DNA of 64,000 bases from Patescibacteria group bacterium (GCA_040388985.1 JAZKAU010000003.1:110896-174895); one strand, 5' to 3'; shown: positions 6,541 to 64,000, counted from the first letter of the stretch. Program-made: numbers and translations. The notes: generated by a model from the sequence alone, not told the origin.

Positions 6541-7542
6541 TTATCTTATTCCCGCCATCTGACGAGCGACTTCAGCTATGTGGGCAGCAGAAAGGCCGTA
6601 GTGTTCGAGAAGCTCTTCGGGAGTGCCAGATTGGCCGAAGACGTCGAGGATGCCGAGGCGCGTGATAGGCACAGGATACTTTTCTGATAGGCACTCGGAG
6701 ACTGCCGAACCGAAGCCGCCAGCGGCTTGGTGCTCTTCTATAGTGATGACTTTGCCGGTGCGCTTGGCGGCTGCGACTACCGCTTCAACATCGAGCGGTT
6801 TGATAGTCGCGATATGGAGCACGATAGAACCGATGCCGTCGGCCTCAAGCGCGCGAGCAGCCCCGAGCGCGGTCGAGCTCATGCTGCCGGTAGACATAAG
6901 CGTCACCTTCGGCGCCCCTTTATCTCCTTGTGATTCCCAGAGCGTGAGCGCCTTCCCTATCTCAAACGGACTCTCGGGAGTCGAGATAAGCGGCACGGGA
7001 GCGCGACCGAACCGGATATACGTCGGGTCTTTGGTCGCTGCCGCAGCCACCGTCGCCTTTCGCGCTTCTTCCGCGTCCATAGGGTTCATGACGACCATGC
7101 GCGGAAGCATGCGCATGAGACCGATATCTTCTAACATCTGGTGGGTGGCGCCGTCAGGCCCCACCGACACGCCCGCGTGCATGCCAGCAATCTTCACCGG
7201 TACATTGTTAAGCGCGATGGTCGTGCGGATCTGCTCGTAGTTGCGGCCGGGACTGAAGGCGGCGTAGGAAGCTATGAACGGTATCTTGCCGGCAAGCGCG
7301 AAGCCTGCGGCGAGCGCCGCCATGTTCTGCTCGGCGATGCCGACTTCGATGAAGCGATCCGGGAATTCTTTTTCGAACCATTCTGCCCTCGTCGACTCCT
7401 TCAGGTCGGCGCAGAGTACGACGACATTCGGGTCTGTCTTCCCTGCCTCGATGGTACCGGTGCCGAAGCCATCACGCGTCGACTTCTGTTCGACGTCCTT
7501 GTCGAATACGTTCGGTACCAATTTCGCGTGAGGGGATATCAT
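6541..7542 (-). CDS. tkt: Transketolase, C-terminal subunit (pyrimidine-binding and C-terminal domains)
   Basis: 333 aa; ...FIEVGIAEQNMAALAAGFALAGKIPFIASYAAF... is typical of split transketolase subunit B. ATG verified. Its start overlaps the MazG stop (ATGA). Confidence 0.85.
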   Translation of the reverse strand: MISPHAKLVPNVFDKDVEQKSTRDGFGTGTIEAGKTDPNVVVLCADLKESTRAEWFEKEFPDRFIEVGIAEQNMAALAAGFALAGKIPFIASYAAFSPGRNYEQIRTTIALNNVPVKIAGMHAGVSVGPDGATHQMLEDIGLMRMLPRMVVMNPMDAEEARKATVAAAATKDPTYIRFGRAPVPLISTPESPFEIGKALTLWESQGDKGAPKVTLMSTGSMSSTALGAARALEADGIGSIVLHIATIKPLDVEAVVAAAKRTGKVITIEEHQAAGGFGSAVSECLSEKYPVPITRLGILDVFGQSGTPEELLEHYGLSAAHIAEVARQMAGIR

Positions 7543-8057
7543 ATGCCGTCGTTCTTACGATATTCCTTCTTCACCTTCCAATACGCGTCCTCAGTGCCCG
7601 GCTCCTGGCCTTCCGGCCGATCGCTGAAGAGCTCTGCTGGGTATTTCTTCTTCGCATGCTCGAGCTTCTCTCGGATCAAGGCGGCGGTATCAAGCCCGAG
7701 CGACACGGATATATCAAGACAATAGATGAGTACGTCAGCCAACTCTTTCTTGATCGCGCTTACCTTCTCAGGATTCCCTTTCACTTCCTCCAGGCTCGGA
7801 TTATCCCACTGAAAGAGTTCGAGTAATTCTCCCGCTTCGATGGAAACGGATTTCGCGAGGTCGCCGGGACGGAGCTGGTGCCATTTCCGTTCAGTGAGAT
7901 ATTCACGTATCTCTTGTTCAAGGTCTTGCATAGAGACTCCTGAAATTCCCCGATCTACTGCGTTGTCGCTATCACTCGAGCCTTCACCGTACGGCTCAGT
8001 ACGGCTCAGGCTCTCATTCTGCTCCGCCTTGTATATCGGGTTTTTCTGAAGTCTCAT
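7539..8057 (-). CDS. MazG-like nucleotide pyrophosphohydrolase domain protein
   Basis: EEVKGNPEKVSAIKKELADVLIYCLDISVSLGLD matches the MazG/NTP-PPase EExxE helix. 172 aa, sitting between the two transketolase halves. Confidence 0.65.
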   Translation of the reverse strand: MRLQKNPIYKAEQNESLSRTEPYGEGSSDSDNAVDRGISGVSMQDLEQEIREYLTERKWHQLRPGDLAKSVSIEAGELLELFQWDNPSLEEVKGNPEKVSAIKKELADVLIYCLDISVSLGLDTAALIREKLEHAKKKYPAELFSDRPEGQEPGTEDAYWKVKKEYRKNDGI

Positions 8058-8061
8058 AGAT

Positions 8062-8919
8062 TTATTGGTGTTCGCTCGTTATCTTTCCGTTAAGGGTCCG
8101 GAGTTCATTCAAGAACTTCTGCGCTTCTTCCTTCGACTTCGGATAGCCATGGTAGTGATAATCGAATTCTATCTCGGGAATACCTTTGCCCGGTATGGTG
8201 TGCGCGATGATGACGGTCGGCTTCTCGTATATGGTCTTCGCTTCTTCTATAGCGCCCACGAAGGCGCGGATATCGTGTCCATTCACTTCAAGCACGTGCC
8301 AGTTGAACGCTTCGTATTTCTCCTTGAGAGAATCGAGCGGCATGATGTCCTCCGTCATGCCGTCGATCTGGATATTGTTGCGATCGATGACGGCGGTGAG
8401 GTTGCTGAGCTTATTCTTTCCGGCGAACATGACCGCCTCCCACACGTTGCCTTCGTTCTGTTCCCCGTCGCCCATGCATACGTAGGTACGATTGCGCTTA
8501 CCGTCCATACGAGCGGCATAGGCCAAGCCGCACGCTTGCGAAAGTCCCTCGCCGAGCGGGCCTGAGGTGGTCTCAAGTCCCGGCAATCGCTCGCGCTCCG
8601 GGTGTCCCTGAAGCCGGCTTCCGAACTTGCGGAGTGTCAGGCACTCCTCTATCGGGAAGTATCCCGCATGCGCCATCGCAGCGTAGCGCACGGGTACGAT
8701 GTGGCCGTTGGAGAGGATGAGGCGATCGCGCTCTTCCCAGTCAGGGTTCGCGGGATCATGTTTCAATATATGGAAATAGAAAGCAGAAAATATATCTGCC
8801 ATATCGAGCGGGCCTGCGGTGTGCCCGCTCCCCGCTGCGATCAGCATGGACAGTATCGTTTCGCGTATCGCTTGCGCCTTCGCTTCAAGTTCTTGGATAT
8901 CGGTATCAGTAAGAGCCAT
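8062..8919 (-). CDS. tkt: Transketolase, N-terminal subunit (thiamine-diphosphate binding)
   Basis: SGHTAGPLDMADIFSAFYF..., GHPE..., CMGDGEQNEGNVWEA (TPP-binding GDG motif). 285 aa. Confidence 0.85.
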   Translation of the reverse strand: MALTDTDIQELEAKAQAIRETILSMLIAAGSGHTAGPLDMADIFSAFYFHILKHDPANPDWEERDRLILSNGHIVPVRYAAMAHAGYFPIEECLTLRKFGSRLQGHPERERLPGLETTSGPLGEGLSQACGLAYAARMDGKRNRTYVCMGDGEQNEGNVWEAVMFAGKNKLSNLTAVIDRNNIQIDGMTEDIMPLDSLKEKYEAFNWHVLEVNGHDIRAFVGAIEEAKTIYEKPTVIIAHTIPGKGIPEIEFDYHYHGYPKSKEEAQKFLNELRTLNGKITSEHQ

Positions 8920-49685: not shown

Positions 49686-50093
49686 ATGTCTTCGCATACT
49701 TTAGGGATGAAATTATTTACTGAATGGCTCCTTCTTAAGAGGCAACTACACGAACGTACGCATCGCCCACCCTATGTGTCGGAAAGAGATATGTGGTGGA
49801 TCAGTATCGGAGAGAATGTTGAGCATGAGATAGATGGTAAAAGCGCCCGATTTACCAGACCAGCCCTTATTCTCAAGAAGCTCGGCTGTGGATTCTATCT
49901 TGTGGCACCGACTACTACCCAAAGGCATGTTGGTAGCTGGTATGTGTGCGTTCGGCTCGGCAAGACTGAGGAATATGTATGTCTTAACCAGATCAGGACC
50001 CTGGATTATCGTCGCGTGTATTCAAAGCTAGGTCAGATAGATACGAATGATTTTCGGAGAGTAAAAGAGGGGTTCAATAACCTTTATATATGA
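49686..50093 (+). CDS. MazF/PemK-family type II toxin (mRNA interferase)-like protein
   Basis: ERDMWWISIGENVEHEIDGKSARFTRPALILKK...YLVAPTTTQRH parallels the MazF/PemK pattern (GDI.wvdf.p..G.Eq.g.RPalvls......vivaPiTs). Lower GC than its neighbours. No antitoxin ORF of 60 aa or more is adjacent. Confidence 0.5.
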   Translation: MSSHTLGMKLFTEWLLLKRQLHERTHRPPYVSERDMWWISIGENVEHEIDGKSARFTRPALILKKLGCGFYLVAPTTTQRHVGSWYVCVRLGKTEEYVCLNQIRTLDYRRVYSKLGQIDTNDFRRVKEGFNNLYI

Positions 50094-53286: not shown

Positions 53287-55443
53287 TTATTTCGTTATGC
53301 CCAGCTGCTGCAATACCGCCGCACCTTGGCTCGCTGATTCTGGATGCGCCGCGATAGTCGCGTTCACCTGCGCGACCGCGTCCGCGCGGCGGCCGGCTGC
53401 GGAATAGATAGCGGCGAGCTGGAAGCCGGTCGCCGCATCATTCTGCTGCGCAAGATGCGCCTTCACGATGCTGATGAGATCGTCCCAGTCCTGTATCTGG
53501 TAGTACGCGAGCAGGAGGATGGACTGATTGAGCGTCGTGGTGCCGAAGGTCTGCGCAAGGAGCGCCTTTCCGCCAGCGACATCATGCTGCGCGATGAGGC
53601 TCCCCGCGATAAACGGAACGATGTCGGTATCGTGAGTGTCGAGCGCATACGCATCCTTGAAGAATGTCTCGGCGCCGGCATAGTCGTTCGACTGGAAAGC
53701 TTCGAGTCCTTGTTCGAGGATGATGGTCTGCTTGCGCGGCGAGAGCTCGCGGGCGCGGGCGCTCTCGGCCTGCGCGTCCTTGATGCGTCCTATGCTGCGC
53801 AGCAAGAGCGCGTACTGCACGTGCAGGCGAGCGTCCAGAGGCGTATCGGCGAGCTGCCGCTGCATCTCCTGTACGGCATAGGTCGCGACCTCGGCACGCT
53901 GTGCGTCAGGAACGCTGGCATTGCTTGCCACCGTCGGAGCGAAGTTCGCGAGCTGCTCGGCGATTTCCTGGTGCGCGAAGGAGCCGTCGTTCACTGCCTT
54001 CTTGAAGTAGCCCAGTCGTGCGGCCGCGTCATTGGATGGCGTGAGCGCGCCGATGAGATCACCGCCCGCGCTTACGCTCGGCACGTTCACGAACCATATG
54101 ACAAGGATGACGACTACCGCCGCGAGAGGCGCTATGACGGTAGTGAGAGGCGCCTTCCCTACTTCAGGCCAACGCTCCATAAGTGCTATCGGACGCGAAC
54201 GGACCTTGTGCGCCATGGCGAGGATGGCGACGAACGGAAGATAGGTGAAAAGGTTATCGAAGACGACAAGACCCTGGATCACGTAGCCGGTGAGCGCTGC
54301 AAGCAGGAAGATACGTTCTGAACGGGACACAGGCGCGCGATAGAGGCCGTAGGCGGCCGAGAGTAGTACGGCGAGGAAGAGGAGGAGCGCGGGGATGCCG
54401 CCAGCGACCGCCCAATCGAGGAACATATCGTGAGCCCGGTCGAACCACGGCTCCTGTCCGTACATCGACGGTTCGTAGTAGGTATTAAATACGTAGTTGT
54501 AGCCCTCCTGACCCCAACCGGTGACCGGGCGCGCCTGTATGCCCTCCACTGCCATGTGCCAGATAGTGAAGCGCGTCCCGAGCGCTTGCTTTAGCGAGAA
54601 GGCAGAGGCGAGACGATCGAGATTCGGGCTGGCGTGCACGAAGGCGCTATTGCGCACTGCGAAGAGTCCGCCCACCAGAAGTACGAGTACGGCAAAGAGC
54701 GCGACGGCGCCTTTCCTTCCCCGCTTTCCGGCTTCAAGCATCCACAGTACGCTGCCGACGACTCCCGCGCCGATAAGGGCTATGAAGCTGCCGCGCGTGC
54801 CGGTCTGGAAGAGCACGACGAGTTCGAGCGCGGCAAGGACGAAGAGTCCGTACTTGAGCCACGCGTAGTCTTTGCCACGCGTCTCGAATGCCTGCCAGAG
54901 CGCGATGGCGATGGCGAAGAGAAGATACCCGGCGAGATACTCTGCATTGCCGAGCGTCGAGTCGATGCGATCCGCGCTCTGGCTGATAGTAGCCATACCT
55001 GTCATCTGCATGAGTCCGTAGACCGTCACGAGCGCTGCGCCTCCCGTAAACGCAAGCCACCACTTCCGCCAGAGGGTATCGACTGACAGGATGGAGCTGG
55101 CGACCAGCATGAAGAGATAGAGGTGAATCAGGGTTATCCAGCCGTCCATGCGTTCGAAGTTGCTCCAGAAGGCCTTGTGCGGGTTCACGGCAAAGAATAC
55201 GGCGATAAGCATCCAGAAGACGAAGGTCTTGTACCAGGCGAGCGTCCAGGAGAATCGCGGACGGTAGCGGCGATCGGCGAACGCGAGTATGGTCCAGGCA
55301 CCGAACGCTATCTCGACCAAGACGCGGAAGAAGAAGTTCTTGCCGGTGATGAAGGGAAAGTAGGAGCCATTAGCTACATATAAGGAGAGGAACGGAATGG
55401 CGAACAGGGCGACGACGGCGACCCACCAGGCAACTTTTTTCAT
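53287..55443 (-). CDS. O-antigen ligase/polymerase (Wzy_C)-family membrane protein with C-terminal TPR repeats
   Basis: About 10 TM helices, with a large periplasmic loop and a Wzy_C-like core (GTRGSFIALIGAGVV, NRAHDMFLDWAVAGGIPALLLFLAVLL). The C-terminal about 250 aa are TPR-like (AYALDTHD...AAIYSAAGRRADAV). ATG 55443 chosen; the tracked ORF begins at GTG 55464. Confidence 0.7.
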   Translation of the reverse strand: MKKVAWWVAVVALFAIPFLSLYVANGSYFPFITGKNFFFRVLVEIAFGAWTILAFADRRYRPRFSWTLAWYKTFVFWMLIAVFFAVNPHKAFWSNFERMDGWITLIHLYLFMLVASSILSVDTLWRKWWLAFTGGAALVTVYGLMQMTGMATISQSADRIDSTLGNAEYLAGYLLFAIAIALWQAFETRGKDYAWLKYGLFVLAALELVVLFQTGTRGSFIALIGAGVVGSVLWMLEAGKRGRKGAVALFAVLVLLVGGLFAVRNSAFVHASPNLDRLASAFSLKQALGTRFTIWHMAVEGIQARPVTGWGQEGYNYVFNTYYEPSMYGQEPWFDRAHDMFLDWAVAGGIPALLLFLAVLLSAAYGLYRAPVSRSERIFLLAALTGYVIQGLVVFDNLFTYLPFVAILAMAHKVRSRPIALMERWPEVGKAPLTTVIAPLAAVVVILVIWFVNVPSVSAGGDLIGALTPSNDAAARLGYFKKAVNDGSFAHQEIAEQLANFAPTVASNASVPDAQRAEVATYAVQEMQRQLADTPLDARLHVQYALLLRSIGRIKDAQAESARARELSPRKQTIILEQGLEAFQSNDYAGAETFFKDAYALDTHDTDIVPFIAGSLIAQHDVAGGKALLAQTFGTTTLNQSILLLAYYQIQDWDDLISIVKAHLAQQNDAATGFQLAAIYSAAGRRADAVAQVNATIAAHPESASQGAAVLQQLGITK

Positions 55444-55488
55444 ATGCGCGTAGTATACCACCACCCTAATTCTTACTGCGTAGCTATG

Positions 55489-56163
55489 TCAGACACTCTC
55501 AACAGGAGCATCCTTTCTCGTCCAATTCTCCCAATTAAACGTATACATATAGGTCGGGCGATGCGTCAGCGACAATTTCTTCCGTATATCACGCATGCGT
55601 CTTTTCGCGTCAGGCACAAAATTATGAAACTGTATCTGTAGATCCGTAATGTCTTTGACGGTACCGGATGCGATGAGGTGCTCAAGTAACTCGTACTCAC
55701 CTCCCTCTATGTTTATCTTCATGAGATCTATGTGGGAAATGTCGTGTTTCTGTAAGAAGGGAGTCGCTGCTTCCAACGCTACAGTCTCCTGAGACTTACC
55801 GGTCACCGCTTCTTCAAACACTGAAGAGCTTTCCGCGCTTTGAGACATGAGAGCGGTGCGGGTCGTGCCGGCGAGACCTGCCTTATATACCGTAATCTCG
55901 GGGTTATTCTCGAATTTCTTCGCAAGCTGATCGAACTGTTCCGCTATCGGTTCGAAGATGTGTATCTGCGGCTGATAGAGCGCGTGGATGCGTTCTGCCC
56001 AGGTTCCTTCATATCCACCAACGTCGAAGACAACGGAGGAAGGATTCAGGTCGTAGGTATAGCGGAGATTCCTCTCGTGCGCATCTGTCCACCTCCACGT
56101 GCCCCACCGTATGCCGAGCTTGCTCAGAGAGTGACGTACGCGATAGGCGCCTCTAATGGTCAT
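55489..56163 (-). CDS. FkbM-family methyltransferase
   Basis: VFDVGGYEGTWAERI...IHIFEP... matches the Methyltransf_21 pattern. ATG 56163. Confidence 0.7.
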   Translation of the reverse strand: MTIRGAYRVRHSLSKLGIRWGTWRWTDAHERNLRYTYDLNPSSVVFDVGGYEGTWAERIHALYQPQIHIFEPIAEQFDQLAKKFENNPEITVYKAGLAGTTRTALMSQSAESSSVFEEAVTGKSQETVALEAATPFLQKHDISHIDLMKINIEGGEYELLEHLIASGTVKDITDLQIQFHNFVPDAKRRMRDIRKKLSLTHRPTYMYTFNWENWTRKDAPVESV

Positions 56164-56383
56164 AGTAGAATTATAAAGGCTTTGGCATCTATTTGGAAGG
56201 AGCCAGAGATCCAATACGGTTCATGTATCTTCCATCGAATAAGTATAGGGACGCTCTGATGGCGTGATATTCGAAGAGGCTGATATAGGAAGGAGCTCGT
56301 AGCTGAAACTTTCAAAGGATAGAGGTAGTATACTGTCTATATAACGGGTATGAGAAAGGAATGGGCTAATTAATTCATTATTT

Positions 56384-57364
56384 ATGGCGACAACGAAGCA
56401 GCGGAGGGCTCTGGTATGCGGGGCAGGCGGTTTTATAGGAGGACATCTGGTGAAACGCCTCAAAGCTGAGGGATACTGGGTGCGAGGCGTTGATCTTAAG
56501 CATAACGAATACTCTGAGAGTCCAGCTGACGAATTCGTTATCGGCGACCTGCGTGACGTATCGGTATGTGATCGGGTGATAACGTCGGATATTGATGAGA
56601 TATACCAGCTCGCTGCCGATATGGGCGGCGCGGGATACATCTTCACGGGCGAGCATGACGCTGACGTGATGCATAACTCTGCGACTATCAACTTGAACGT
56701 AGCGTCTATCGCGGTCAAGAAAGGCATTGCCAAGATATTCTATTCGTCCTCAGCCTGTATATACCCCGAGCATAATCAGATGAATCCGGACGACCCGAAC
56801 TGCGAAGAATCCTCGGCGTATCCTGCAAATCCAGACAGTGAATACGGCTGGGAGAAACTCTTCAGCGAGCGCATGTATCTAGCCTATCACCGGAATTACG
56901 GCCTCAATGTCCGCATCGCGCGCTTTCATAATATCTTCGGCCCGGAAGGCACGTGGGATGGCGGTAAAGAGAAGGCACCTGCCGCTATGTGTCGCAAGGT
57001 AGCGGAGACGCCGGACGGCGGCGAGATTCAGATCTGGGGTGACGGCGAACAGACACGGTCGTTCCTCTATATAGATGAGTGTCTCGAAGGTGTACGGCGG
57101 CTCATGGAATCAGATTTTACCGGTCCCGTTAATATCGGTTCCGACGAGATGGTAACTATCAACCAGCTGGTCGAGATGGCAATGGACATCGCTGGCAAGC
57201 ATCTTGCTATCAAGCACATCGAGGGTCCCCTCGGCGTACGCGGGCGCAATTCCCATAACGAGCTCATCGAGAAGAAGATCGGCTGGCGGCCGACGCAGCC
57301 GCTTCGTGCAGGCCTTGAGAAGACCTATGTTTGGATAGCGGAGCAAGTAGCGGCGCGCCGTTAG
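56384..57364 (+). CDS. GDP-mannose 3,5-epimerase-like NAD-dependent epimerase (SDR extended family)
   Basis: GAGGFIGGHL Rossmann motif, SSACIYPE, and FHNIFGPEGTWDGGKEKAPAAMCRK. These closely parallel plant GME (FHNIYGPFGTWKGGREKAPAAFCRK; SFTFIDECVEGVLRL versus SFLYIDECLEGVRRL). Recalled from memory, not searched. Confidence 0.7.
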   Translation: MATTKQRRALVCGAGGFIGGHLVKRLKAEGYWVRGVDLKHNEYSESPADEFVIGDLRDVSVCDRVITSDIDEIYQLAADMGGAGYIFTGEHDADVMHNSATINLNVASIAVKKGIAKIFYSSSACIYPEHNQMNPDDPNCEESSAYPANPDSEYGWEKLFSERMYLAYHRNYGLNVRIARFHNIFGPEGTWDGGKEKAPAAMCRKVAETPDGGEIQIWGDGEQTRSFLYIDECLEGVRRLMESDFTGPVNIGSDEMVTINQLVEMAMDIAGKHLAIKHIEGPLGVRGRNSHNELIEKKIGWRPTQPLRAGLEKTYVWIAEQVAARR

Positions 57365-57383
57365 CGGCGCGTACCATCACAGC

Positions 57384-58721
57384 GTGTCCACATCTACCTT
57401 CAGCCGCCTCCGCTCACGAATGCGTAGACACGTGGTCGCGGCGTGGGAGCATGAAGGATTCAAGAAATATTTCGCCAATACCGGGTGGCTATTCGCCGCG
57501 CGGATGATCTCGTACGCAGTGTCGTTCTTCACTATCGCCGTAGTGGCGCGCTACCTCGGTCCCGAAAACTACGGGAAGCTCAGCTATGCCCAGAGCTTCA
57601 TATCCCTATTCTCGATATTCGCCTCACTCGGCATAGATAATATCCTGTACCGCGATCTCATTGCGCATCCGGAAAAGGAGGAGGAACTGCTCGGCACCGC
57701 CATCGTCTCCCGACTCCTCTTCGGATGTCTGACCATAGCCGTCGCCGTCGTCGCCTCGCTCTGTCTTGATAGCGACAAGGTGCTTACCGCGATGATAGCG
57801 ATCATCTCGTTCACGTTCATCTTCCAACCCTTCACTTCGTTCAACACGTACTTGAACGCGAAGATAGCATCCAAGTACTACGCCTTCATATCCATCTTCG
57901 ATTCGTTCTTCATGGCGGGATTGAAGCTTGTATTCGTATACCTGGGCTTCGGAATACTGTATTTTGCCTCTCTGCTTCTGCTCGAAGCCATCTTGTTCGC
58001 AGGATACTATCTGGTCGTGTATGTCGTGCGCTTCAAGGGAAGCCTGGCACGACTCAGATTCTCCGCACGCACCTGCATGACGCTCTTCAAGGATTCCTGG
58101 CCGCTCCTGCTCGCCAGCGTCTCAAGCTATTTCTACGGCCGCATAGACCAGGTCATGATCCAATACTTCATGGACTCTGCCTCGGTCGGATTCTACGATG
58201 CTGCGATGCGGCTCACGGAAGTATGGATATTCTTCCCGTCCCTCATCATCAGCTCGATCTTTCCTGCTGTCGCCAATGCGTATCGCACGGATCTCACGCA
58301 GTACTATCAGCGATTCAAAGTACTCAGCCTTCTCACGCTCGCCTCCATGCTCTGCATCGTAGTGCCGGTCTTCCTCCTCGCGCCTCTCATCGTGCACTTC
58401 GTCTTCGGCAGCGCCTTCGCGCCTACTGCCGGCATCCTACGCATATATGTCTGGTCGGGCATCGGCATTACCTTCATCGCACTCGTGCAGAGCTACCTGG
58501 TCATAGAGAATCGTGGTAAACAGTTCTTCTTGATAACGTTCGCGGGCGCGCTCGCTAACATAGCGCTCAACCTATTCCTTATTCCGCACTACGGTATGGA
58601 TGGCGCGGCAATCGCGACGCTCCTTTCGTACGGCCTGATGGTCATAGCGTTCTGTGCATTCCGAGAGAATCGGGCCGGGCTACTCCAATTCGCACACAAA
58701 AAAGTACGGAATGCCTCATAG
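57384..58721 (+). CDS. Wzx-type oligosaccharide flippase (polysaccharide biosynthesis protein, MOP superfamily)
   Basis: About 12 TM helices; KKYFANTGWLFAARMISYAVSFFTIAVVARYLGPENYGK is typical of PF01943. The start is GTG 57384 or ATG 57420. Confidence 0.7.
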   Translation: MSTSTFSRLRSRMRRHVVAAWEHEGFKKYFANTGWLFAARMISYAVSFFTIAVVARYLGPENYGKLSYAQSFISLFSIFASLGIDNILYRDLIAHPEKEEELLGTAIVSRLLFGCLTIAVAVVASLCLDSDKVLTAMIAIISFTFIFQPFTSFNTYLNAKIASKYYAFISIFDSFFMAGLKLVFVYLGFGILYFASLLLLEAILFAGYYLVVYVVRFKGSLARLRFSARTCMTLFKDSWPLLLASVSSYFYGRIDQVMIQYFMDSASVGFYDAAMRLTEVWIFFPSLIISSIFPAVANAYRTDLTQYYQRFKVLSLLTLASMLCIVVPVFLLAPLIVHFVFGSAFAPTAGILRIYVWSGIGITFIALVQSYLVIENRGKQFFLITFAGALANIALNLFLIPHYGMDGAAIATLLSYGLMVIAFCAFRENRAGLLQFAHKKVRNAS

Positions 58722-58771
58722 CCCGGCTATCGACCGCGTGCTAGAGTTAGCTATCCAATCGAACCACTCGT

Positions 58772-59560
58772 ATGCACCCAACAGTACGCGCTACGCTCAT
58801 ACATCTCATGAACAAGGTCCCGGGCATCCTGGGCCTCTATCAGTTCCTCCGAGGCTTTACCCTGCTTCCCGGTTTCTATCGGGACTACCGCGCCTTTAAG
58901 AAGGCACAAGACCGGGGCGAGGCACGCTTTCCGCTGCGGAAGCGCGACTTCTTCCTGGCGCTTTTTGACAAGACGGGTCACACGCCGTTCGATCCGCATT
59001 ACATCTATCACCCAGCTTGGGCGGCGCGCGTCATCGCGGAGTCGAAACCTGCCAAGCACGTCGACATTGCATCGATTCTTTCCTTCTCCACTGTGGTATC
59101 GGCATTCGTGCCGACGGATTTCTACGACTACCGTCCGGCGCAAGTGACTCTTCCTGACTTCTCCGGCAAACGAGGAGACTTGCTCGCGCTTCCCTTTGAG
59201 GACAAGAGTATCGCCTCGCTCTCCTGCATGCATACGGTCGAACACGTGGGACTCGGCCGCTACGGCGATCCGATAGACCCTGACGGAGACCTGAAAGCTA
59301 TGGCTGAGCTTGCGCGCGTGCTTGCCATAGGCGGCAATCTCCTTTTCGTCGTTCCCGTGGGTGCGGCGCGCATAGAATTCAACGCGCATCGCGTATACAG
59401 CTACGAGCAAGTCATCTCCGGATTCTCCGGGCTCAGGCTTAAGGAATTTGCGCTCATTCCTGACAATTATAAGAAGCACGGCCTCATACGGGGAGCGGAC
59501 CCAGCCATGGTAGCTTCGCAGCGCTACGCCTGCGGCTGTTTCTTATTCACGAAAGACTGA
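58772..59560 (+). CDS. Putative SAM-dependent methyltransferase (DUF268-like)
   Basis: LSCMHTVEHVGLGRYGDPIDPDGDLKAMAELARVLAIGGNLLFVVPVG resembles the class I methyltransferase post-motif region. The family assignment is tentative. Confidence 0.4.
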   Translation: MHPTVRATLIHLMNKVPGILGLYQFLRGFTLLPGFYRDYRAFKKAQDRGEARFPLRKRDFFLALFDKTGHTPFDPHYIYHPAWAARVIAESKPAKHVDIASILSFSTVVSAFVPTDFYDYRPAQVTLPDFSGKRGDLLALPFEDKSIASLSCMHTVEHVGLGRYGDPIDPDGDLKAMAELARVLAIGGNLLFVVPVGAARIEFNAHRVYSYEQVISGFSGLRLKEFALIPDNYKKHGLIRGADPAMVASQRYACGCFLFTKD

Positions 59561-59632
59561 AATCCGCCTTCAAACAGCCGGCCACCTATAGGTGGCCGGC
59601 TGTTTGAAGATAGTCGCTCGCGAGTAACGTAA

Positions 59633-60886
59633 CTACCAGCCACGCAGAACCTGTACGCTCTCAGGGAACCGAAGATTCTCGTAGCCCGGCCATGGACAAC
59701 AGACCACCGCAAGCGCGAGATCTGTACGTTCGAACAGCTCGTCAAGGTCTTCTACATAGGTGAGATGCTCAAGTTCAGCGGGATTGTTGCGCGGGTTAGC
59801 GGCAAAGTCATGTACGAGCACATCATACCCATCTTTCTGCAGAGACTGAGCTAAGATAAGGCCGGCGGCCTCTTCCGTAATGTGCGTGTCCGGCTTGTAC
59901 GTAAGGCCAAGCACCGCAATGGCACCCTTCCCTTTTGGTACCATGCCTTCTACTTTCTTCTGCAGATCCTCATTGCTCATCGTATTCACCTGGTCGGTAG
60001 CTTCGGCAAGCGGAGCGACGACACCCTTCTGGCGCGCGACGTACGCGAGAAGACGATTATCGCGCGGGAAACAGGGACCGCCATAGCTAAGGCCGGCGCG
60101 GAGATATTTCTTGCCTATGCGAGTATCGCTTCCCAGCGCTTCGAGGATCGTATGGATATTGGCTCCAGGAAATTGATCGGCAATCATGCGGAGCTGATTC
60201 GTGAAGCTTATCTTCATGGTCACGAAGCTGTTGACCGATATCTTCGTGAGTTCCGCGCTCACGAGTGACATTCGCGCAATCGTCGGTTGGTTGCGGTTAT
60301 ACGAGCGATAAAGCGTTTCAAGCGCTTCTCCATATTTGGCATGCGACTCGCCGATGAGTACCATATCCGGTTCGAGCAAGCCGTTGACTACATTTCCGAG
60401 CGCAATGAATTCTGGATTGTAACAGAAACCGAAATCTACGCCGCACTTCCCTTCTAGCTCCTCTTCAATAGCGGGAATGAGTACCGACTCGCAGGAGCCA
60501 GGCGTGGTCGTTGAGCTGCAGACAAAGAGATGGTCCTTCTTTCCGGACGCGCGGAGCGCGCGAGCTACCGAACGCATAGCTTTTTCAAGATATTCATTCG
60601 AGAAGCTTCCGTCCGGAAGGCTTGGAGACGGCGTAATAAAGAATGTCACGTCGGAATGAACGAGATCTGCCGCATCAGTCGTAGCGCGCAAATGAGCATG
60701 TCCACTGGTGACGAATTCCTGCAGACGAGGCTCATCAACAGGTGCCTGGCCTGCGTTTATCTTAGCGACTTTCTCCGGGTCGATATCTAGCCCCACGACG
60801 TCATGTCCTGCGGCAGCAAACGTCGCGGCGATACACGCGCCGAGCTTTCCGAGTCCGCACACCGATATCTTTTCTATCTGTTTCAT
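59633..60886 (-). CDS. Nucleotide-sugar dehydrogenase (UDP-glucose/GDP-mannose 6-dehydrogenase family)
   Basis: From ATG 60886: MKQIEKISVCGLGKLGACIAATFAAAGHDVVGLD (N-terminal Rossmann) and the catalytic GGPCFPRD-like motif SYGGPCFPRDNRLL. Confidence 0.8.
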   Translation of the reverse strand: MKQIEKISVCGLGKLGACIAATFAAAGHDVVGLDIDPEKVAKINAGQAPVDEPRLQEFVTSGHAHLRATTDAADLVHSDVTFFITPSPSLPDGSFSNEYLEKAMRSVARALRASGKKDHLFVCSSTTTPGSCESVLIPAIEEELEGKCGVDFGFCYNPEFIALGNVVNGLLEPDMVLIGESHAKYGEALETLYRSYNRNQPTIARMSLVSAELTKISVNSFVTMKISFTNQLRMIADQFPGANIHTILEALGSDTRIGKKYLRAGLSYGGPCFPRDNRLLAYVARQKGVVAPLAEATDQVNTMSNEDLQKKVEGMVPKGKGAIAVLGLTYKPDTHITEEAAGLILAQSLQKDGYDVLVHDFAANPRNNPAELEHLTYVEDLDELFERTDLALAVVCCPWPGYENLRFPESVQVLRGW

Positions 60887-60943
60887 TATTTTTTTCTTTA
60901 GTGGGAGATTTCTGTATACTATACCGAAGCGAAGAATCTGACT

Positions 60944-61813
60944 ATGATACTCACAAAAATCAGCGGGGGCATGGGAAACCAGATGTTCCAGTATGCGCTT
61001 GGCAGGGCGCTTTCCTTGCGCCATAGGGTGCCATTCAAGCTCGATATCACGGCCTTCGAGCACGTTTCGACGAACAAGTATTCGATACGGCATTTCGAGC
61101 TCTCTCACTTCTCTATAGCCGGCGGCATCGCTACGGCTCGGGAGATACAGAAGATGAAATACCCCTTAGGGAAGATCTCCCGCTACTGGCGCGGCATACG
61201 GGCACGTCTGTTTAAAGATACGAATATCCGCTTCAACTCGAAGATACTTGCGAGAAGGAGCGGTTATTTTGACGGATACTGGCAGTCGGAAGAGTACTTC
61301 AAGGAATATGCGGATGTTATCCGATCTGACTTCGCTCCCAAAGAACCCATGAGTGCCAGCGCTCAAGCGCTTGCGCACGAGTTAGTCTCGGCCGCCTTAC
61401 CTGTCTCGCTGCATATACGCCGGGGTGATAACGCGTACAACGCCGATAGCATGAAGAAATTCGGCATGCCTTCGATCGCCTATTACGAAACCGGTCCGTC
61501 GCTCATCGCCCAGAAGCTCGGCAGAGAAGACCTGCACGTATATATATTTTCGGACGATATCGACTGGGTCCGTGAGCACCTCCATCTGCACTTTCCGGTG
61601 ACATACGTATCTCAAGAAGGTATCGCCGACTGGGAAGAGGTCGTGCTCATGTCCCGCTGCGCGCATCACGTGATAGCCAATAGTACCTTCAGCTGGTGGG
61701 GCGCATGGCTTAATCCTTCTCCCGATAAAGTGGTGGTCGCGCCGTTGCACTGGGCCAATGTAGCGCCCCGAGAGTTCACAGACGTCATCCCCTCCTCTTG
61801 GATCCGAGCATAA
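60944..61813 (+). CDS. GT11-family glycosyltransferase (alpha-1,2-fucosyltransferase-like)
   Basis: GGMGNQMFQYALG and HIRRGD motifs, plus the C-terminal ANSTFSWWGAWLN. Confidence 0.75.
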   Translation: MILTKISGGMGNQMFQYALGRALSLRHRVPFKLDITAFEHVSTNKYSIRHFELSHFSIAGGIATAREIQKMKYPLGKISRYWRGIRARLFKDTNIRFNSKILARRSGYFDGYWQSEEYFKEYADVIRSDFAPKEPMSASAQALAHELVSAALPVSLHIRRGDNAYNADSMKKFGMPSIAYYETGPSLIAQKLGREDLHVYIFSDDIDWVREHLHLHFPVTYVSQEGIADWEEVVLMSRCAHHVIANSTFSWWGAWLNPSPDKVVVAPLHWANVAPREFTDVIPSSWIRA

Positions 61814-62909
61814 GAAGTACGTCGTTCTTACGCTCCCGGTGAAGGCTTGAATCCGTGGCCTTACGCCATCCGAAGGCGCGATAGTGATTGAAGACGAGCT
61901 CGTTTTCAGGAACATCCTTCATGCGCTCCCTGTTAACGATGACTTCATGCACACTCATCGCGTCAGCCTTCGGATGCAGGGTCGCTGCTATCTGCTTCGT
62001 CGGGCTCGTCGGTGCCGATTCGCTGTAGAGAAAGCTGCCAACCACTCCCTTGCTAGGTATATCCGCTAGCTCTGTATCCGAACCGCTGAAGAAATAGCCT
62101 TTGATACGCAAGAAAGGATATTTCGCATACCGCCGTATCACGTCAGGTATTGTCTCTCCCGCAGGTGAGTATATATATTCGTCGACGTCGGACATCAGCA
62201 GCCACTGGGTCTCGTTCGCGTACTTATAGAGCGCGTGGTGCATCTGCGGCACCTGCGTATACATATGCGAGTCAAGCGGCCAGAACGGCTTCATGAGATA
62301 GGGGTAGAGATGATACGGATAGGGCCACGAAATATAGGTGGCGATATTCCGATCGACGTACGGCGCGATCGCTTTCTTCACATTACCCTCTCCCGGTTCG
62401 TTATTGTCGTATATATAAAAATGTTCGACTCCCTCCTGACTATGATGCTCTATCCATTCAGCGAGGTATTCGCCTTCGTATTTGATGAGCGTCGTAACGG
62501 ACAAGAACGTGACTGGCGCCTTATCCGCTCTGTTCTCGAGAGTACCCGAGTGCAGTACCGCCCGCCCCCGGCGGACGGTTACCGTCACGTACTGCTCATG
62601 CCGGAGCGCGTCCGGCAGTAGGTAGAGCGCTATGAGACAGGATCGTTCCGGTTCGCGAACGAAGCGCACACGGCTTGAGTACTGCTTACTTCCTGCTGCG
62701 AAATCGCAGACCGAGCCTCGAAAAGCATTCTTGGCATAGTATGGAGTTATCACACAGACGCAGCCACCCGCTTTCTTAGTGACGAATACGTCATAGATAC
62801 GTGGCCCTTGCGTCAGATTCCGGAATAAGGTTCCTAGCTTCACTCCCCCGAACGTCATGAACGCGTATTTCCCATAGCGGTATGTCTTGGATAGTACGCG
62901 TGATATCAT
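61785..62909 (-). CDS. Glycosyltransferase, GT92/DUF23-like (GT-A fold)
   Basis: FLSVTTLIKYEGEYLAEWIEHHSQEGVEHFYIYDNNEP is typical of GT92/DUF23 N-terminal cores. 374 aa. Its 3' end overlaps the preceding GT11 gene by 29 nt. Confidence 0.5.
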   Translation of the reverse strand: MISRVLSKTYRYGKYAFMTFGGVKLGTLFRNLTQGPRIYDVFVTKKAGGCVCVITPYYAKNAFRGSVCDFAAGSKQYSSRVRFVREPERSCLIALYLLPDALRHEQYVTVTVRRGRAVLHSGTLENRADKAPVTFLSVTTLIKYEGEYLAEWIEHHSQEGVEHFYIYDNNEPGEGNVKKAIAPYVDRNIATYISWPYPYHLYPYLMKPFWPLDSHMYTQVPQMHHALYKYANETQWLLMSDVDEYIYSPAGETIPDVIRRYAKYPFLRIKGYFFSGSDTELADIPSKGVVGSFLYSESAPTSPTKQIAATLHPKADAMSVHEVIVNRERMKDVPENELVFNHYRAFGWRKATDSSLHRERKNDVLLMLGSKRRG

Positions 62910-62974
62910 ATGGCTATTCTAGCGCATTCCTTTTCCCTCAGGAATTACGACGCTGAACCGCTATAGCCACCAAT

Positions 62975-63847
62975 ATGGTCATTACTGCTCTCAAGGGAGG
63001 ACTCGGAAATCAGCTGTTCCAATACGCGCTTGGGCGGAAGATATCGCTCCTACGGAGCGATATCTTCAAACTCGATATCGCAGGACTCGACCGCGCGCGG
63101 ACCGTTGGAGACATCTACCGCCCCTTCGCCCTTGGCGCTTTCGCCATACAGGCCAGTATTGCAACATCAGAAGAAGTCGAGAGACTGAAATACCCCTACG
63201 GAGTGCTATCGAAGGCTCTGCGTATATTCCGGGCGAAGATACTCCGTCAGTACCATGTGGGCTTCGAGCCCGACATACTGCGCCGCACCGGCGATCTCTA
63301 TCTCGACGGATATTGGCAATCACCCAAGTATTTCGAGGACATCCGTGGCACACTCCTCGAAGACTTTACGCTCATTGCTCCCCTTTCGGGTCCTGCAGAG
63401 GATTTGAAAGCTCGCATGCAAGCTACAAATTCAGTCTCGGTCCATGTACGGCGTGGAGACTATGTATCAGACCAGAGCGTCGCGCGCGTCAACGGCCCCT
63501 GTACGCTTTCCTACTACGAACGTGCGGTCAGCGAAGTGCGTAAGCGCATAGAGCACCCTACCTGGTTCGTTTTCTCGGACGATATCGATTGGGTGAAGGA
63601 GAATCTCGATCTGCCGGGAACCGTCATCTACGTCTCAGGGGAGGCGCAGAGCGATCAGGAAGAACTGATGCTCATGGCCGCCTGCTCGCACAACGTCATC
63701 GCAAATTCTACCTTCAGCTGGTGGGGTGCATGGCTCAACCAGAATCCTCAGAAAGTGGTCGTGGCTCCTACGCCGTGGTTCAACCTTCATAATGGTGCGT
63801 ACGCACACCTCATACCTTCCGCATGGATACAAGTACAAAAAGCCTAG
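62975..63847 (+). CDS. GT11-family glycosyltransferase (second alpha-1,2-fucosyltransferase-like paralog)
   Basis: GGLGNQLFQYALG, HVRRGDY and ANSTFSWWGAWLN motifs. Confidence 0.75.
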   Translation: MVITALKGGLGNQLFQYALGRKISLLRSDIFKLDIAGLDRARTVGDIYRPFALGAFAIQASIATSEEVERLKYPYGVLSKALRIFRAKILRQYHVGFEPDILRRTGDLYLDGYWQSPKYFEDIRGTLLEDFTLIAPLSGPAEDLKARMQATNSVSVHVRRGDYVSDQSVARVNGPCTLSYYERAVSEVRKRIEHPTWFVFSDDIDWVKENLDLPGTVIYVSGEAQSDQEELMLMAACSHNVIANSTFSWWGAWLNQNPQKVVVAPTPWFNLHNGAYAHLIPSAWIQVQKA

Positions 63848-63873
63848 GCTCCGGGCCGCTAGTAAGCGTGCTG

Positions 63874-64000
63874 ATGCTCACCTATAATCGCGCGGACTTC
63901 ATCGGTCGTGCCATCGAGAGCGTGCTCGCGCAGACGCTCATCGATTGGGAGCTCATTATCGTTGACGACGGCTCGACCGATACCACGGCGGACGTCGTCG
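63874..64000 (+). CDS. GT2-family glycosyltransferase, 3'-partial (N-terminus only)
   Basis: ...LVSVLMLTYNRADFIGRAIESVLAQTLIDWELIIVDDGSTD is the classic GT2 start. The start codon is uncertain: ATG at 63874, or GTG at 63868 or upstream. Confidence 0.55.
   Translation, partial: MLTYNRADFIGRAIESVLAQTLIDWELIIVDDGSTDTTADVV

What the first reader, a model, noticed from the sequence alone, without database searches (positions are those of the whole stretch)
56384..63847. A GDP-mannose 3,5-epimerase homolog next to two GT11 'fucosyltransferases' suggests an L-galactose or L-gulose surface glycan
The epimerase shares long near-identical stretches with plant GME as recalled: FHNI(F/Y)GP.GTW.GG.EKAPAA.CRK and SF..IDEC.EGV.RL...DF..PVNIGSDEMV. 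GME makes GDP-L-galactose, and L-fucose is 6-deoxy-L-galactose. Two GT11 enzymes (GGxGNQxFQYA and HxRRGD motifs) lie within 4 kb, while no gmd/fcl GDP-fucose synthesis genes are present in the window. Inference: the GT11s may transfer L-galactose or L-gulose rather than fucose. That would be a rare bacterial glycan chemistry.
Basis: partly seen in the sequence, partly recalled or inferred. Interest (0 to 1): 0.6.

Follow-up and report, generated by a model that had tools for sequence, protein, structure and literature searches.

The report
GDP-L-galactose epimerase beside fucosyltransferase-like enzymes
A tiny-genome (Patescibacteria) bacterium has a surface-sugar gene cluster that carries the enzyme making activated L-galactose next to two "fucosyltransferase"-family enzymes but no fucose-synthesis genes; the same pairing recurs in other bacteria and ocean cyanophages, so these transferases may install L-galactose instead of fucose, though this is not proven.

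Summary
Window 56384-57364 encodes a genuine GDP-mannose 3,5-epimerase homolog. It matches the Arabidopsis GME structure at E=2e-99 with 50% identity, and the next SDR scores 3e-27. It has the Cys/Lys/Arg signature that separates GM35E from GDP-fucose synthase. Windows 60944-61813 and 62975-63847 are paralogous GT11 enzymes. No Gmd, Fcl, ManB or ManC is present in the 64 kb window or in 2.7 kb beyond it.

The locus runs from 53287 to about 64600 and belongs to a Patescibacteria MAG. It holds a Wzy_C/TPR protein, two methyltransferases, GME, Wzx, an NDP-sugar dehydrogenase, GT11, GT92, GT11 and GT2. Both boundaries are visible.

GT11 lies within 10 kb of GME in 7/80 genomes and 26/80 viral contigs, mostly without Gmd/Fcl. 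Among GT11-anchored viral loci, 16 have GME only, 15 have Gmd/Fcl only, and 1 has both. Cyanophage S-SSM6a/S-SSM7 carries GME, a dehydrogenase and three GT11s.

Three limits remain. The rest of this genome is unseen. The window's GT11s are equidistant from GME-linked and fucose-linked relatives. Donor use cannot be computed. "Rare" is overstated at gene level: at least 587 species and at least 588 viral contigs carry GME.

The parts
53287..55464 (-). 725-aa membrane protein with a Wzy_C (O-antigen ligase/polymerase-type) domain and C-terminal TPR. It marks the left end of the glycan locus.
   Evidence: Pfam PF04932 at 3.7e-19 and TPR_19. Homologs lie near GME in the CPR loci L002, L003, L009 and L015. 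Genes to its left are DUF6624, Nuc_deoxyrib_tr, NUDIX x2 and MurB.
55489..56214 (-). FkbM-family methyltransferase.
   Evidence: Pfam PF05050 at 4.5e-11 and TIGR01444 at 2.9e-15. FkbM homologs are frequent direct neighbours of GT11 in other loci.
56384..57364 (+). GDP-mannose 3,5-epimerase (GM35E/GME) homolog, 326 aa.
   Evidence: Matches PDB 2c59 AtGME at E=2e-99 with 50% identity. G13xxG16xxG19, S123, C125, Y154, K158, K197 and R288 are all present. E. coli Fcl has H and K at the last two positions.
57384..58721 (+). Wzx-type MOP flippase.
   Evidence: Pfam Polysacc_synt at 3.2e-29 and Polysacc_synt_3 at 4e-25. NCBIfam Wzx_EPS at 1e-19, below its cutoff.
58772..59560 (+). DUF268-family putative SAM methyltransferase.
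   Evidence: Pfam PF03269 at 3e-15. Homologs lie next to GT11 and/or GME in L002, L015, L024, L040, L088, L102, L132, L158 and L161.
59633..60886 (-). NDP-sugar 6-dehydrogenase, 417 aa. The longer ORF running to 61108 is probably not used. Its nucleotide-sugar substrate is undetermined.
   Evidence: Pfam UDPG_MGDP_dh N, central and C domains; TIGR03026 at 1.2e-85. The Logan gene call is 417 aa. Best PDB hit is a UGDH, 3vtf, at 210 bits; AlgD GDP-mannose dehydrogenase scores 176 bits. Close homologs (300 bits or more) lie within 2 kb of GME in L009, L010, L035, L038 and L080. A homolog also sits in the cyanophage S-SSM7 cluster.
60944..61813 (+). GT11 glycosyltransferase a, 289 aa. Candidate alpha-L-galactosyl- or fucosyl-transferase.
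   Evidence: Pfam PF01531 at 3.9e-24. Motifs GGMGNQMFQYA, HIRRGD and NSTFSWWGAWL.
61785..62909 (-). GT92-family glycosyltransferase, 374 aa.
   Evidence: Pfam PF01697 at 1.1e-21. No homolog was found in any of the 80 GME-anchored genome loci.
62975..63847 (+). GT11 glycosyltransferase b, 290 aa.
   Evidence: Pfam PF01531 at 2.1e-35. Motifs GGLGNQLFQYA, HVRRGD and NSTFSWWGAWL. It is a paralog of GT11a at 43% identity.
63823..64000 (+). 5' end of a GT2 glycosyltransferase, 258 aa in full. It runs to about 64599, beyond the window, and is the last gene of the locus.
   Evidence: It is seen whole on Logan contig L083 at 4244-5020, with Pfam PF00535 at 2.2e-34. It is followed by a NUDIX gene and a 522-aa ORF with no Pfam hit, both on the minus strand.

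Best explanation
This is a Wzx/Wzy-type surface-glycan (or protein-glycosylation) locus of a Patescibacteria (CPR) bacterium.

Shown by sequence: the SDR at 56384-57364 is a GDP-mannose 3,5-epimerase. By homology it should convert GDP-D-mannose into GDP-beta-L-galactose, with GDP-L-gulose as a minor product.

Inferred: because the locus holds GME but no GDP-fucose genes, at least one of the two GT11 paralogs most likely uses GDP-L-galactose as its donor. GDP-L-galactose is the 6-hydroxy analogue of GDP-L-fucose. The enzyme would install an alpha-L-galactosyl residue (or L-gulosyl) where classical clusters install alpha-L-fucose.

Also inferred: GT92 and GT2 add other sugars. The FkbM and DUF268 methyltransferases O-methylate residues. 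The 6-dehydrogenase supplies a uronic acid. Wzx flips the lipid-linked unit, and the Wzy_C/TPR protein polymerises or ligates it. GDP-mannose must come from genes outside the window.
For: GME identity:
- E=2e-99 to AtGME, against 3e-27 for the next SDR family.
- 50% identity to AtGME, the same level the characterised bacterial MfGM35E shows to AtGME (PMC6678494).
- The catalytic Cys, the Lys base (not His) and the Arg (not Lys) are invariant in 82 homologs, and E. coli Fcl differs exactly as the review states.

Locus content and boundaries:
- No Gmd, Fcl, ManC or ManB in the window.
- No other SDR in the window.
- Both ends of the locus are visible.

GME-GT11 linkage elsewhere:
- 7/80 GTDB genome loci. 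GT11 directly abuts GME in L010, L013 and L040, and L024 has the order GME-DUF268-x-GT11-GT2 as in the window. Only 2 of the 7 also have Gmd/Fcl.
- The independent CPR locus L009 repeats the set Wzy-TPR, dehydrogenase, GME, FkbM domain and tandem GT11s.
- 26/80 IMG/VR GME-anchored loci carry GT11, often 2-3 paralogs. Three of these have Gmd and none has Fcl.
- The nearest GT11 is on the same strand as GME in 30/31 loci.
- Reciprocally, GT11-anchored IMG/VR loci split into 16 GME-only, 15 Gmd/Fcl-only and 1 with both.
- Cyanophage S-SSM7/S-SSM6a has GME, a dehydrogenase, three GT11s and a methyltransferase. No Gmd hit is recorded for S-SSM6a.

Precedent: fucosyltransferases of other families transfer L-Gal from GDP-L-Gal in vitro and in the Arabidopsis mur1 mutant (PMC8787198 section 12).
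Against: - The rest of the MAG is not visible. The NCBI contig is 185,696 bp, and other contigs exist. gmd/fcl or a salvage enzyme could lie elsewhere. ManB/ManC are also missing from the window, so absence here is weak evidence.
- Among the closest GT11b relatives in JGI metagenomes with at least 8 kb of flank, 10/32 have Gmd/Fcl and only 1/32 has GME.
- L010 and L013 carry GME, GT11, Gmd and Fcl together, as does cyanophage S-SCSM1 (PMC9602691).
- The window's GT11s are equidistant from GME-linked and Fcl-linked GT11s, at distances of 0.53-0.59.
- In most GME loci the adjacent transferase is not a GT11. It is a GT4-like enzyme (adjacent in 16 loci) or a GT26 (adjacent in 12).
- No GT11 enzyme has been shown to use GDP-L-Gal. 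Nothing was found in the literature searched.
Confidence: 0.5

Rival explanations
1. The two GT11s are ordinary alpha-1,2-L-fucosyltransferases fed by GDP-L-fucose made elsewhere, either by gmd/fcl on another contig or by salvage from the host of this episymbiont. The GDP-L-Gal or GDP-L-Gul made by GME is used by a different transferase of the locus, GT2 or GT92.
For: - All characterised GT11 enzymes known to me are fucosyltransferases (established knowledge).
- The closest GT11b relatives in metagenomes are Gmd/Fcl-linked in 10/32 loci, against 1/32 for GME.
- Other CPR loci (L003, L013) do carry Gmd plus Fcl next to GME, so the lineage can make GDP-fucose.
- ManB/ManC are also outside the window, so pathway genes are evidently dispersed.
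- In most GME loci a non-GT11 transferase sits next to GME.
Against: - The locus is bounded on both sides and lacks gmd/fcl. Where CPR relatives have gmd/fcl, the genes sit inside the same locus.
- GT92 has no homolog in any other GME locus, and GT2 is not specifically linked to GME.
- GME-only and Gmd/Fcl-only contexts of GT11 are about equally common and almost mutually exclusive in IMG/VR, at 16, 15 and 1.
Confidence: 0.3
2. GME works together with the adjacent-type NDP-sugar 6-dehydrogenase to make a GDP-L-hexuronic acid. The route would be GDP-L-Gal to GDP-L-galacturonate, or GDP-mannuronate epimerised to L-gulo/L-galacturonate. That acid, possibly methylated, would be the sugar transferred, by GT11 or by another GT.
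For: - The dehydrogenase subfamily (300 bits or more to the window enzyme) lies within 2 kb of GME in L009, L010, L035, L038 and L080, and at 456 bp in L042. These loci come from different phyla.
- It sits next to a GT11a-like gene in L124 and in the S-SSM7 phage cluster.
- It is as similar to AlgD GDP-mannose dehydrogenase (176 bits) as to most UDP-glucose dehydrogenases (175-210 bits).
Against: - The best matches are still UDP-glucose dehydrogenases: 3vtf, and NCBIfam AglM at 261 bits.
- The AlgD match does not cover the C-terminal nucleotide-binding domain; it spans query residues 6-362.
- GME is equally conserved (about 70-75% identity) in loci with and without the dehydrogenase. This argues for a single substrate, GDP-mannose.
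- No such pathway is described.
Confidence: 0.15
3. The epimerase homolog has a different activity from GM35E, for example a single epimerisation or a different GDP/NDP-sugar substrate. In that case no L-galactose or L-gulose is made.
For: No assay exists for this protein. GM35E relatives are often mis-annotated and few have been characterised (PMC8787198).
Against: 50% identity to AtGME, with all catalytic and discriminating residues conserved. The only characterised bacterial homolog, which is equally distant from AtGME, gives the same 80:15:5 product mix.
Confidence: 0.05

Closest known systems
GDP-mannose 3,5-epimerase: Arabidopsis GME (PDB 2C59 and related entries) and Methylacidiphilum fumariolicum MfGM35E, the one characterised bacterial enzyme (PMC6678494)
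   Same: Extended SDR fold. 50% identity to AtGME. GxxGxxG motif, Ser/Tyr/Lys triad, catalytic Cys, Lys base and Arg. The genomic context is a glycan locus with a glycosyltransferase and methyltransferases, as noted for MfGM35E.
   Different: Not assayed. The host is a CPR bacterium. The neighbouring transferases are GT11s rather than the unspecified GT described for M. fumariolicum.
Classical bacterial fucosylation modules: gmd-fcl(-gmm-manC-manB) plus a GT11 alpha-1,2-fucosyltransferase in O-antigen clusters. The E. coli colanic acid gmd/fcl genes served as seeds here. The O-antigen examples come from general knowledge.
   Same: A GDP-mannose-derived GDP-L-hexose supply gene sits in one locus with GT11 transferases and Wzx/Wzy-type export genes. 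The GT11 motifs are intact.
   Different: Gmd and Fcl are replaced by GME. There is no gmm, manC or manB in the locus. The expected donor is therefore GDP-L-galactose (6-OH) instead of GDP-L-fucose (6-deoxy).
T4-like cyanophage sugar clusters: S-SCSM1 (gmd, fcl, GME, alpha-1,2-FucT; PMC9602691) and S-SSM7/S-SSM6a (this analysis)
   Same: A GME homolog at 60-65% identity, an NDP-sugar dehydrogenase, a methyltransferase and up to three GT11 paralogs in one block. S-SSM6a also lacks Gmd.
   Different: These are phage auxiliary genes rather than a cellular Wzx/Wzy locus. S-SCSM1 additionally has gmd and fcl. The phage GME genes are mostly annotated as UDP-glucose 4-epimerase.
Promiscuous L-galactosylation by fucosyltransferases: plant FUT1 in the mur1 mutant, mouse FUT8 and AtFucTA with GDP-L-Gal (cited in PMC8787198)
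   Same: A fucosyltransferase paired with a GM35E-derived GDP-L-Gal donor.
   Different: Those enzymes belong to GT37, GT23 and GT10, not GT11. There L-Gal transfer is a side activity or an in vitro result, not the proposed physiological role.

Membership tests
GDP-mannose 3,5-epimerase (GM35E, EC 5.1.3.18) | Closest solved or characterised relatives are GM35Es, clearly separated from GalE, GMER, UXS and RmlB | tested here: met
   AtGME at 2e-99 and 336 bits, against the next family at 3e-27 and 99 bits. GDP-fucose synthase scores 5e-19 and GalE 5e-24.
GDP-mannose 3,5-epimerase (GM35E, EC 5.1.3.18) | Extended-SDR glycine motif and [ST]-Y-x3-K catalytic triad | tested here: met
   G13xxG16xxG19, S123, Y154 and K158. 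The triad is invariant in 82 homologs.
GDP-mannose 3,5-epimerase (GM35E, EC 5.1.3.18) | Catalytic acid Cys (AtGME C145), catalytic base Lys (K217; His in GMER), and Arg that acidifies the Cys (R306; Lys in GMER) | tested here: met
   C125, K197 and R288 are present. E. coli Fcl has C, H and K at these columns. The criterion is taken from PMC8787198.
GDP-mannose 3,5-epimerase (GM35E, EC 5.1.3.18) | [quoted passage not shown] | not testable with these tools
   Needs an enzyme assay.
Glycosyltransferase family 11 | Pfam PF01531 match above the gathering score | tested here: met
   85.9 and 122.9 bits, against a cutoff of 23.9.
Glycosyltransferase family 11 | Conserved motifs: N-terminal GGxGNQxFQY, HxRRGD, and C-terminal NSTFSWW | tested here: met
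   All are present in both proteins and in the GT11 genes at 7 related loci.
Glycosyltransferase family 11 | Donor is GDP-beta-L-fucose | not testable with these tools
   No solved GT11 structure was found by sequence or profile search. A candidate specificity position failed replication.
De novo GDP-L-fucose pathway locus (Gmd + Fcl) | Gmd and Fcl encoded with the transferases | tested here: not met
   No Gmd or Fcl in the 64 kb window or in the 2.7 kb extension on L083. The rest of the genome was not examined.
Wzx/Wzy-dependent glycan assembly locus | Wzx flippase and a Wzy_C-domain polymerase/ligase | tested here: met
   Polysacc_synt at 3.2e-29 and Wzy_C at 3.7e-19.
Wzx/Wzy-dependent glycan assembly locus | Initiating polyprenyl-phosphate phosphoglycosyltransferase (Bac_transf or WecA type) in the locus | tested here: not met
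   No such Pfam family appears among the window ORFs scanned or on L083. The gene may lie elsewhere.

The most novel reading that the evidence does not exclude
GT11 'fucosyltransferases' that sit with GME and without Gmd/Fcl are physiological alpha-L-galactosyl (or L-gulosyl) transferases. On this reading, the module of GME, GT11 paralogs, methyltransferases and a 6-dehydrogenase is a widespread, uncharacterised pathway. It would be found in CPR bacteria, several other phyla and T4-like cyanophages, and would build L-galactose-based (possibly methylated or uronic) surface glycans as the 6-hydroxy counterpart of fucosylation.
Probability: 0.4. Interest if true: 0.6.

Novelty: new variant of a known kind. 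Interest (0 to 1): 0.45.

Why it matters
[quoted passage not shown] The GM35E review names the search for glycosyltransferases that use GM35E products as an open need (PMC8787198).

If the GME-linked GT11s are such enzymes, three things would follow:
- Many genes annotated 'alpha-1,2-fucosyltransferase' and 'UDP-glucose 4-epimerase' in genomes, metagenomes and cyanophages would need re-annotation.
- An unknown component of the cell surface of CPR bacteria and of phage-remodelled cyanobacterial surfaces would be predicted.
- Ready-made GME and GT pairs for making L-galactosides would become available.

If they are ordinary fucosyltransferases, the locus is a routine glycan cluster with an extra epimerase.

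Tried and rejected
1. Candidate donor-specificity residue. The His about 13 residues after HxRRGD was absent in 9/9 GME-only-linked GT11s and present in 8/11 Gmd/Fcl-linked ones. This was a post hoc pick. It failed replication, because most GME-linked GT11s in the IMG/VR set do have the His. Rejected.

2. Placing the window's GT11s in a GME-linked or Fcl-linked clade.
   - The NJ tree is star-like.
   - Context is phylogenetically structured overall (67/82 concordance, 0/500 permutations). This is driven by related viral contigs; non-viral sequences give 12/19.
   - The window's GT11s are equidistant from both classes. The result is uninformative.
   - L162 (next to a GME-like gene) and L125 (next to Gmd) have GT11s that are 76% identical.

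3. Structural mapping of the GT11 donor pocket. No solved GT11 structure was found by phmmer or by a profile search, so no model was built.

4. Finding the rest of the MAG. The look-up of encoding contigs returned only 12-kb and 7-kb Logan contigs. The 185,696-bp NCBI contig was not retrievable, and the MAG was not among the 80 GTDB loci returned. A genome-wide search for gmd/fcl was therefore impossible.

5. Literature. No paper in the library links GT11 with GDP-L-galactose or describes a bacterial L-galactosyltransferase.

6. Assigning a substrate to the dehydrogenase from PDB and NCBIfam similarity. The result is ambiguous.

7. Composition. There is no GC anomaly across the locus, so nothing suggests recent transfer.


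Full report
WHAT IS THERE

The window comes from a Patescibacteria (CPR) metagenome-assembled genome. The epimerase protein is identical to an NCBI entry 'MAG... Patescibacteria group bacterium' on a 185,696-bp contig. Most of the window is housekeeping: ribosomal protein L25, class I aldolase, a split transketolase, RPE, RpiB, GAPDH, GatB, Obg, RNase J, SecA and MurB. It also holds one 8,258-aa ORF.

The finding lies in a compact glycan locus with this gene order:
- Wzy_C/TPR membrane protein, 53287-55464, minus strand
- FkbM methyltransferase, 55489-56214, minus
- SDR epimerase, 56384-57364, plus
- Wzx flippase, 57384-58721, plus
- DUF268 methyltransferase-like protein, 58772-59560, plus
- NDP-sugar 6-dehydrogenase, 59633-60886, minus
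- GT11a, 60944-61813, plus
- GT92, 61785-62909, minus
- GT11b, 62975-63847, plus

A Logan contig that overlaps the window end (L083) shows one more gene, a GT2 at about 63823-64599. After it come a NUDIX gene and an unrelated 522-aa ORF on the other strand. To the left of the Wzy_C gene lie DUF6624, a deoxyribosyltransferase-like gene, two NUDIX genes and MurB. Both ends of the locus are therefore visible.

CHECK OF THE OBSERVATION

Every element is confirmed.
- The best solved-structure hits are the four AtGME entries at E about 2e-99. The next family scores 3e-27. Identity to AtGME is 50%.
- Both GT11 ORFs pass the Pfam GT11 gathering score and carry the GGxGNQxFQY, HxRRGD and NSTFSWW motifs. 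They are paralogs at 43% identity.
- E. coli K-12 Gmd, Fcl, ManC, ManB and Gmm find nothing in any six-frame ORF of the window apart from the expected weak Fcl-to-GME cross-hit. The epimerase is the only extended SDR in the window.

IS THE EPIMERASE A GM35E?

The GM35E review (PMC8787198) gives the discriminators against GDP-fucose synthase (GMER):
- Both enzymes have a catalytic Cys.
- GM35E uses a Lys base where GMER uses His.
- GM35E uses an Arg to acidify the Cys where GMER uses Lys.

In an alignment of the window protein with 81 homologs and E. coli Fcl, positions S123, C125, Y154, K158, K197 and R288 are invariant. Fcl has H and K at the last two positions. The only characterised bacterial enzyme, MfGM35E, is also about 50% identical to AtGME and yields GDP-Man:GDP-L-Gal:GDP-L-Gul at 80:15:5 (PMC6678494). 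I take the GM35E assignment as about 0.9 likely. Activity itself is inferred.

HOW COMMON IS THE GENE?

It is very common.
- More than 8000 proteins match at E<1e-30, and the best 120 are 73-85% identical.
- At least 587 GTDB species genomes hold a homolog, across CPR, Acidobacteriota, Bacteroidota, Planctomycetota, Bradyrhizobium and even Nanoarchaeia.
- At least 588 IMG/VR contigs hold one.
- 37 deposited cyanophage records match, mostly annotated 'UDP-glucose 4-epimerase'.

The chemistry may be rarely described, but the gene is not rare.

IS GME FUNCTIONALLY TIED TO GT11?

(a) GME-anchored GTDB loci, 80 loci with 10 kb of flank on each side.
- GT11 is present in 7: L009, L010, L013, L014, L015, L024 and L040. 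A GT11 HMM gives the same count.
- GT11 abuts or nearly abuts GME in L010, L013 and L040.
- L024 has GME-DUF268-x-GT11-GT2, the same order as the window.
- The Paceibacterota locus L009 repeats the Wzy-TPR protein, the dehydrogenase, GME, an FkbM domain and tandem GT11s.
- Two of the seven (L010, L013) also carry Gmd and Fcl.
- The commonest direct neighbours of GME overall are a GT4-like enzyme (18 loci, adjacent in 16), a GT26 (17 loci, adjacent in 12) and the dehydrogenase family (12 loci).

(b) GT11-anchored JGI metagenome loci, which hold the closest relatives of GT11b at 35-46% identity. With at least 8 kb of flank, 10/32 have Gmd or Fcl and 1/32 has a GME-like gene.

(c) GME-anchored IMG/VR loci. 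26/80 carry GT11, often two or three paralogs. Three have Gmd and none has Fcl. Across (a), (c) and the window itself, the nearest GT11 is on the same strand as GME in 30/31 loci.

(d) GT11-anchored IMG/VR loci. 16 have GME only, 15 have Gmd/Fcl only, 1 has both and 48 have neither.

(e) Cyanophage S-SSM7 and its near-twin S-SSM6a. They have a block with GME, a methyltransferase, an NDP-sugar dehydrogenase and three GT11s. No record whose organism name begins with 'Cyanophage' appears among the 87 phage records with a Gmd match, so the S-SSM6a genome lacks Gmd. S-SCSM1, in contrast, has gmd, fcl, GME and an alpha-1,2-FucT together (PMC9602691).

Taken together, GME and Gmd/Fcl behave like alternative partners of GT11 genes. 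It rests on gene neighbourhood, not biochemistry. The viral sets also contain many related contigs, so the counts are not independent events.

WHAT CANNOT BE SAID FOR THIS LOCUS

- The window's two GT11s have no close relatives. Their nearest labelled relatives are a mix of GME-linked and Fcl-linked sequences at nearly equal distance.
- A promising specificity position failed. A His present in fucose-linked GT11s and absent in 9/9 GME-linked ones did not hold up in the viral GME-linked GT11s.
- No GT11 structure is available for mapping a donor pocket.
- The rest of the genome could not be retrieved. ManB and ManC, needed by either pathway, are also outside the window, so absence from the window is only weak evidence about the genome.
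- The stronger argument is that the locus is bounded and lacks gmd/fcl, whereas CPR relatives that have gmd/fcl keep them inside the same locus (L003, L013).

MECHANISM I THINK MOST LIKELY (confidence about 0.5)

GDP-mannose, supplied from elsewhere, is epimerised by GME to GDP-L-Gal, with some GDP-L-Gul. One or both GT11s, as inverting GDP-L-hexose transferases, install alpha-L-Gal. GT92 and GT2 add other residues. FkbM and DUF268 methylate. The dehydrogenase supplies a uronic acid. Wzx flips the unit, and the Wzy_C/TPR protein polymerises or ligates it, possibly onto protein, since CPR cells lack LPS (this last point is inference).

Fucosyltransferase promiscuity toward GDP-L-Gal is documented for GT10, GT23 and GT37 enzymes, but not for GT11.

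Rivals:
- True fucosyltransferases fed from elsewhere (0.3).
- A GME-dehydrogenase route to a GDP-L-hexuronate (0.15). The basis is that the dehydrogenase subfamily sits within 2 kb of GME in six loci from different phyla, and it is as similar to AlgD as to most UDP-glucose dehydrogenases.
- A different epimerase activity (0.05).

COMPARISON AND NOVELTY

All proteins belong to known families, and a bacterial GM35E has been characterised. What differs from the classical gmd-fcl-GT11 fucosylation module is the replacement of Gmd/Fcl by GME. This variant recurs in CPR bacteria, other phyla and cyanophages. I found no description of it in the searched literature. I rate it a new variant of a known kind and of moderate interest. 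A glycobiologist would find it plausible rather than startling. It does nominate concrete candidates for natural L-galactosyltransferases, and it points to likely widespread mis-annotation.

Noticed in passing
window 12891-37664 (-): A single ORF of 8,258 aa. The N-terminal 1500 aa have only an HTH_17 hit. The C-terminal 1500 aa have LVIVD repeats (2e-53), a Peptidase_S74 intramolecular chaperone domain and a bacterial surface Ig-like domain. It looks like a giant surface protein of a CPR bacterium and could be a target of the neighbouring glycosylation machinery.
   Followed up: partly
window 59633-60886 (-); L009 6803-8164, L010 12019-13347, L035 11082-12458, L038 10978-12318, L080 10994-12382, L124 3461-4732, L244 14056-15219: This NDP-sugar 6-dehydrogenase subfamily is repeatedly within 2 kb of GME in unrelated phyla and in cyanophage S-SSM7. 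It is about as similar to AlgD GDP-mannose dehydrogenase (176 bits) as to UDP-glucose dehydrogenases (175-210 bits). It may act on a GDP-hexose, for example GDP-L-Gal to GDP-L-GalA.
   Followed up: partly
L088, L102, L132, L141, L152, L157, L158, L161 (DUF268); L086, L091, L128, L144, L159 (FkbM); window 55489-56214 and 58772-59560: DUF268-family and FkbM-family methyltransferase genes are frequent immediate neighbours of GT11 genes, in both GME and Gmd contexts. This suggests GT11-methyltransferase modules that make O-methylated L-fucose or L-galactose residues.
   Followed up: partly
L076 8682-9929 and 17 other loci (GT4-like); L036 10097-10891 and 16 other loci (GT26 WecG/TagA): In non-CPR bacteria, including Bradyrhizobium, the gene directly next to GME is usually a about 416-aa GT4-like enzyme (adjacent in 16 loci) or a GT26 (adjacent in 12). 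These are further candidates for transferases that use GDP-L-Gal or GDP-L-Gul.
   Followed up: partly
phage records (e.g. NC_015287.1 200671-201726; HQ317391.1 88821-89876): 37 cyanophage and marine-virus records carry a GME homolog at 60-65% identity. It is mostly annotated 'UDP-glucose 4-epimerase' or 'nucleotide-sugar epimerase', which is probably a mis-annotation.
   Followed up: partly
L162 9182-10879 and L125 1433-2326: Two GT11 proteins that are 76% identical have different neighbours. One sits next to a GME-like gene (55% identity to the window GME). The other sits next to Gmd and an SDR that only weakly resembles Fcl (89 bits), possibly a different GDP-6-deoxyhexose reductase.
   Followed up: partly
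L083 5549-7117 (-), about 1.1 kb beyond the window end: A 522-aa ORF with no Pfam hit. By eye its N-terminal half resembles the C-terminal part of TraD/VirD4-type coupling proteins. It has a long, low-complexity C-terminal tail rich in Pro, Arg and Glu.
   Followed up: no
window 6544-7542 and 8065-8919 (-), with 7542-8057 between them: Transketolase is split into separate N-terminal and C-terminal genes, with a MazG-like gene inserted between them. A MazF/PemK toxin gene lies at 49686-50093.
   Followed up: no
L015 9393-9839 (-), L009 8324-8821 (+): A small NUDIX protein that weakly resembles E. coli GDP-mannose mannosyl hydrolase Gmm (42 bits in L015) sits just upstream of GME in two CPR loci. 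The window has NUDIX genes on both flanks of the locus, but none matches Gmm at E<1e-5.
   Followed up: no
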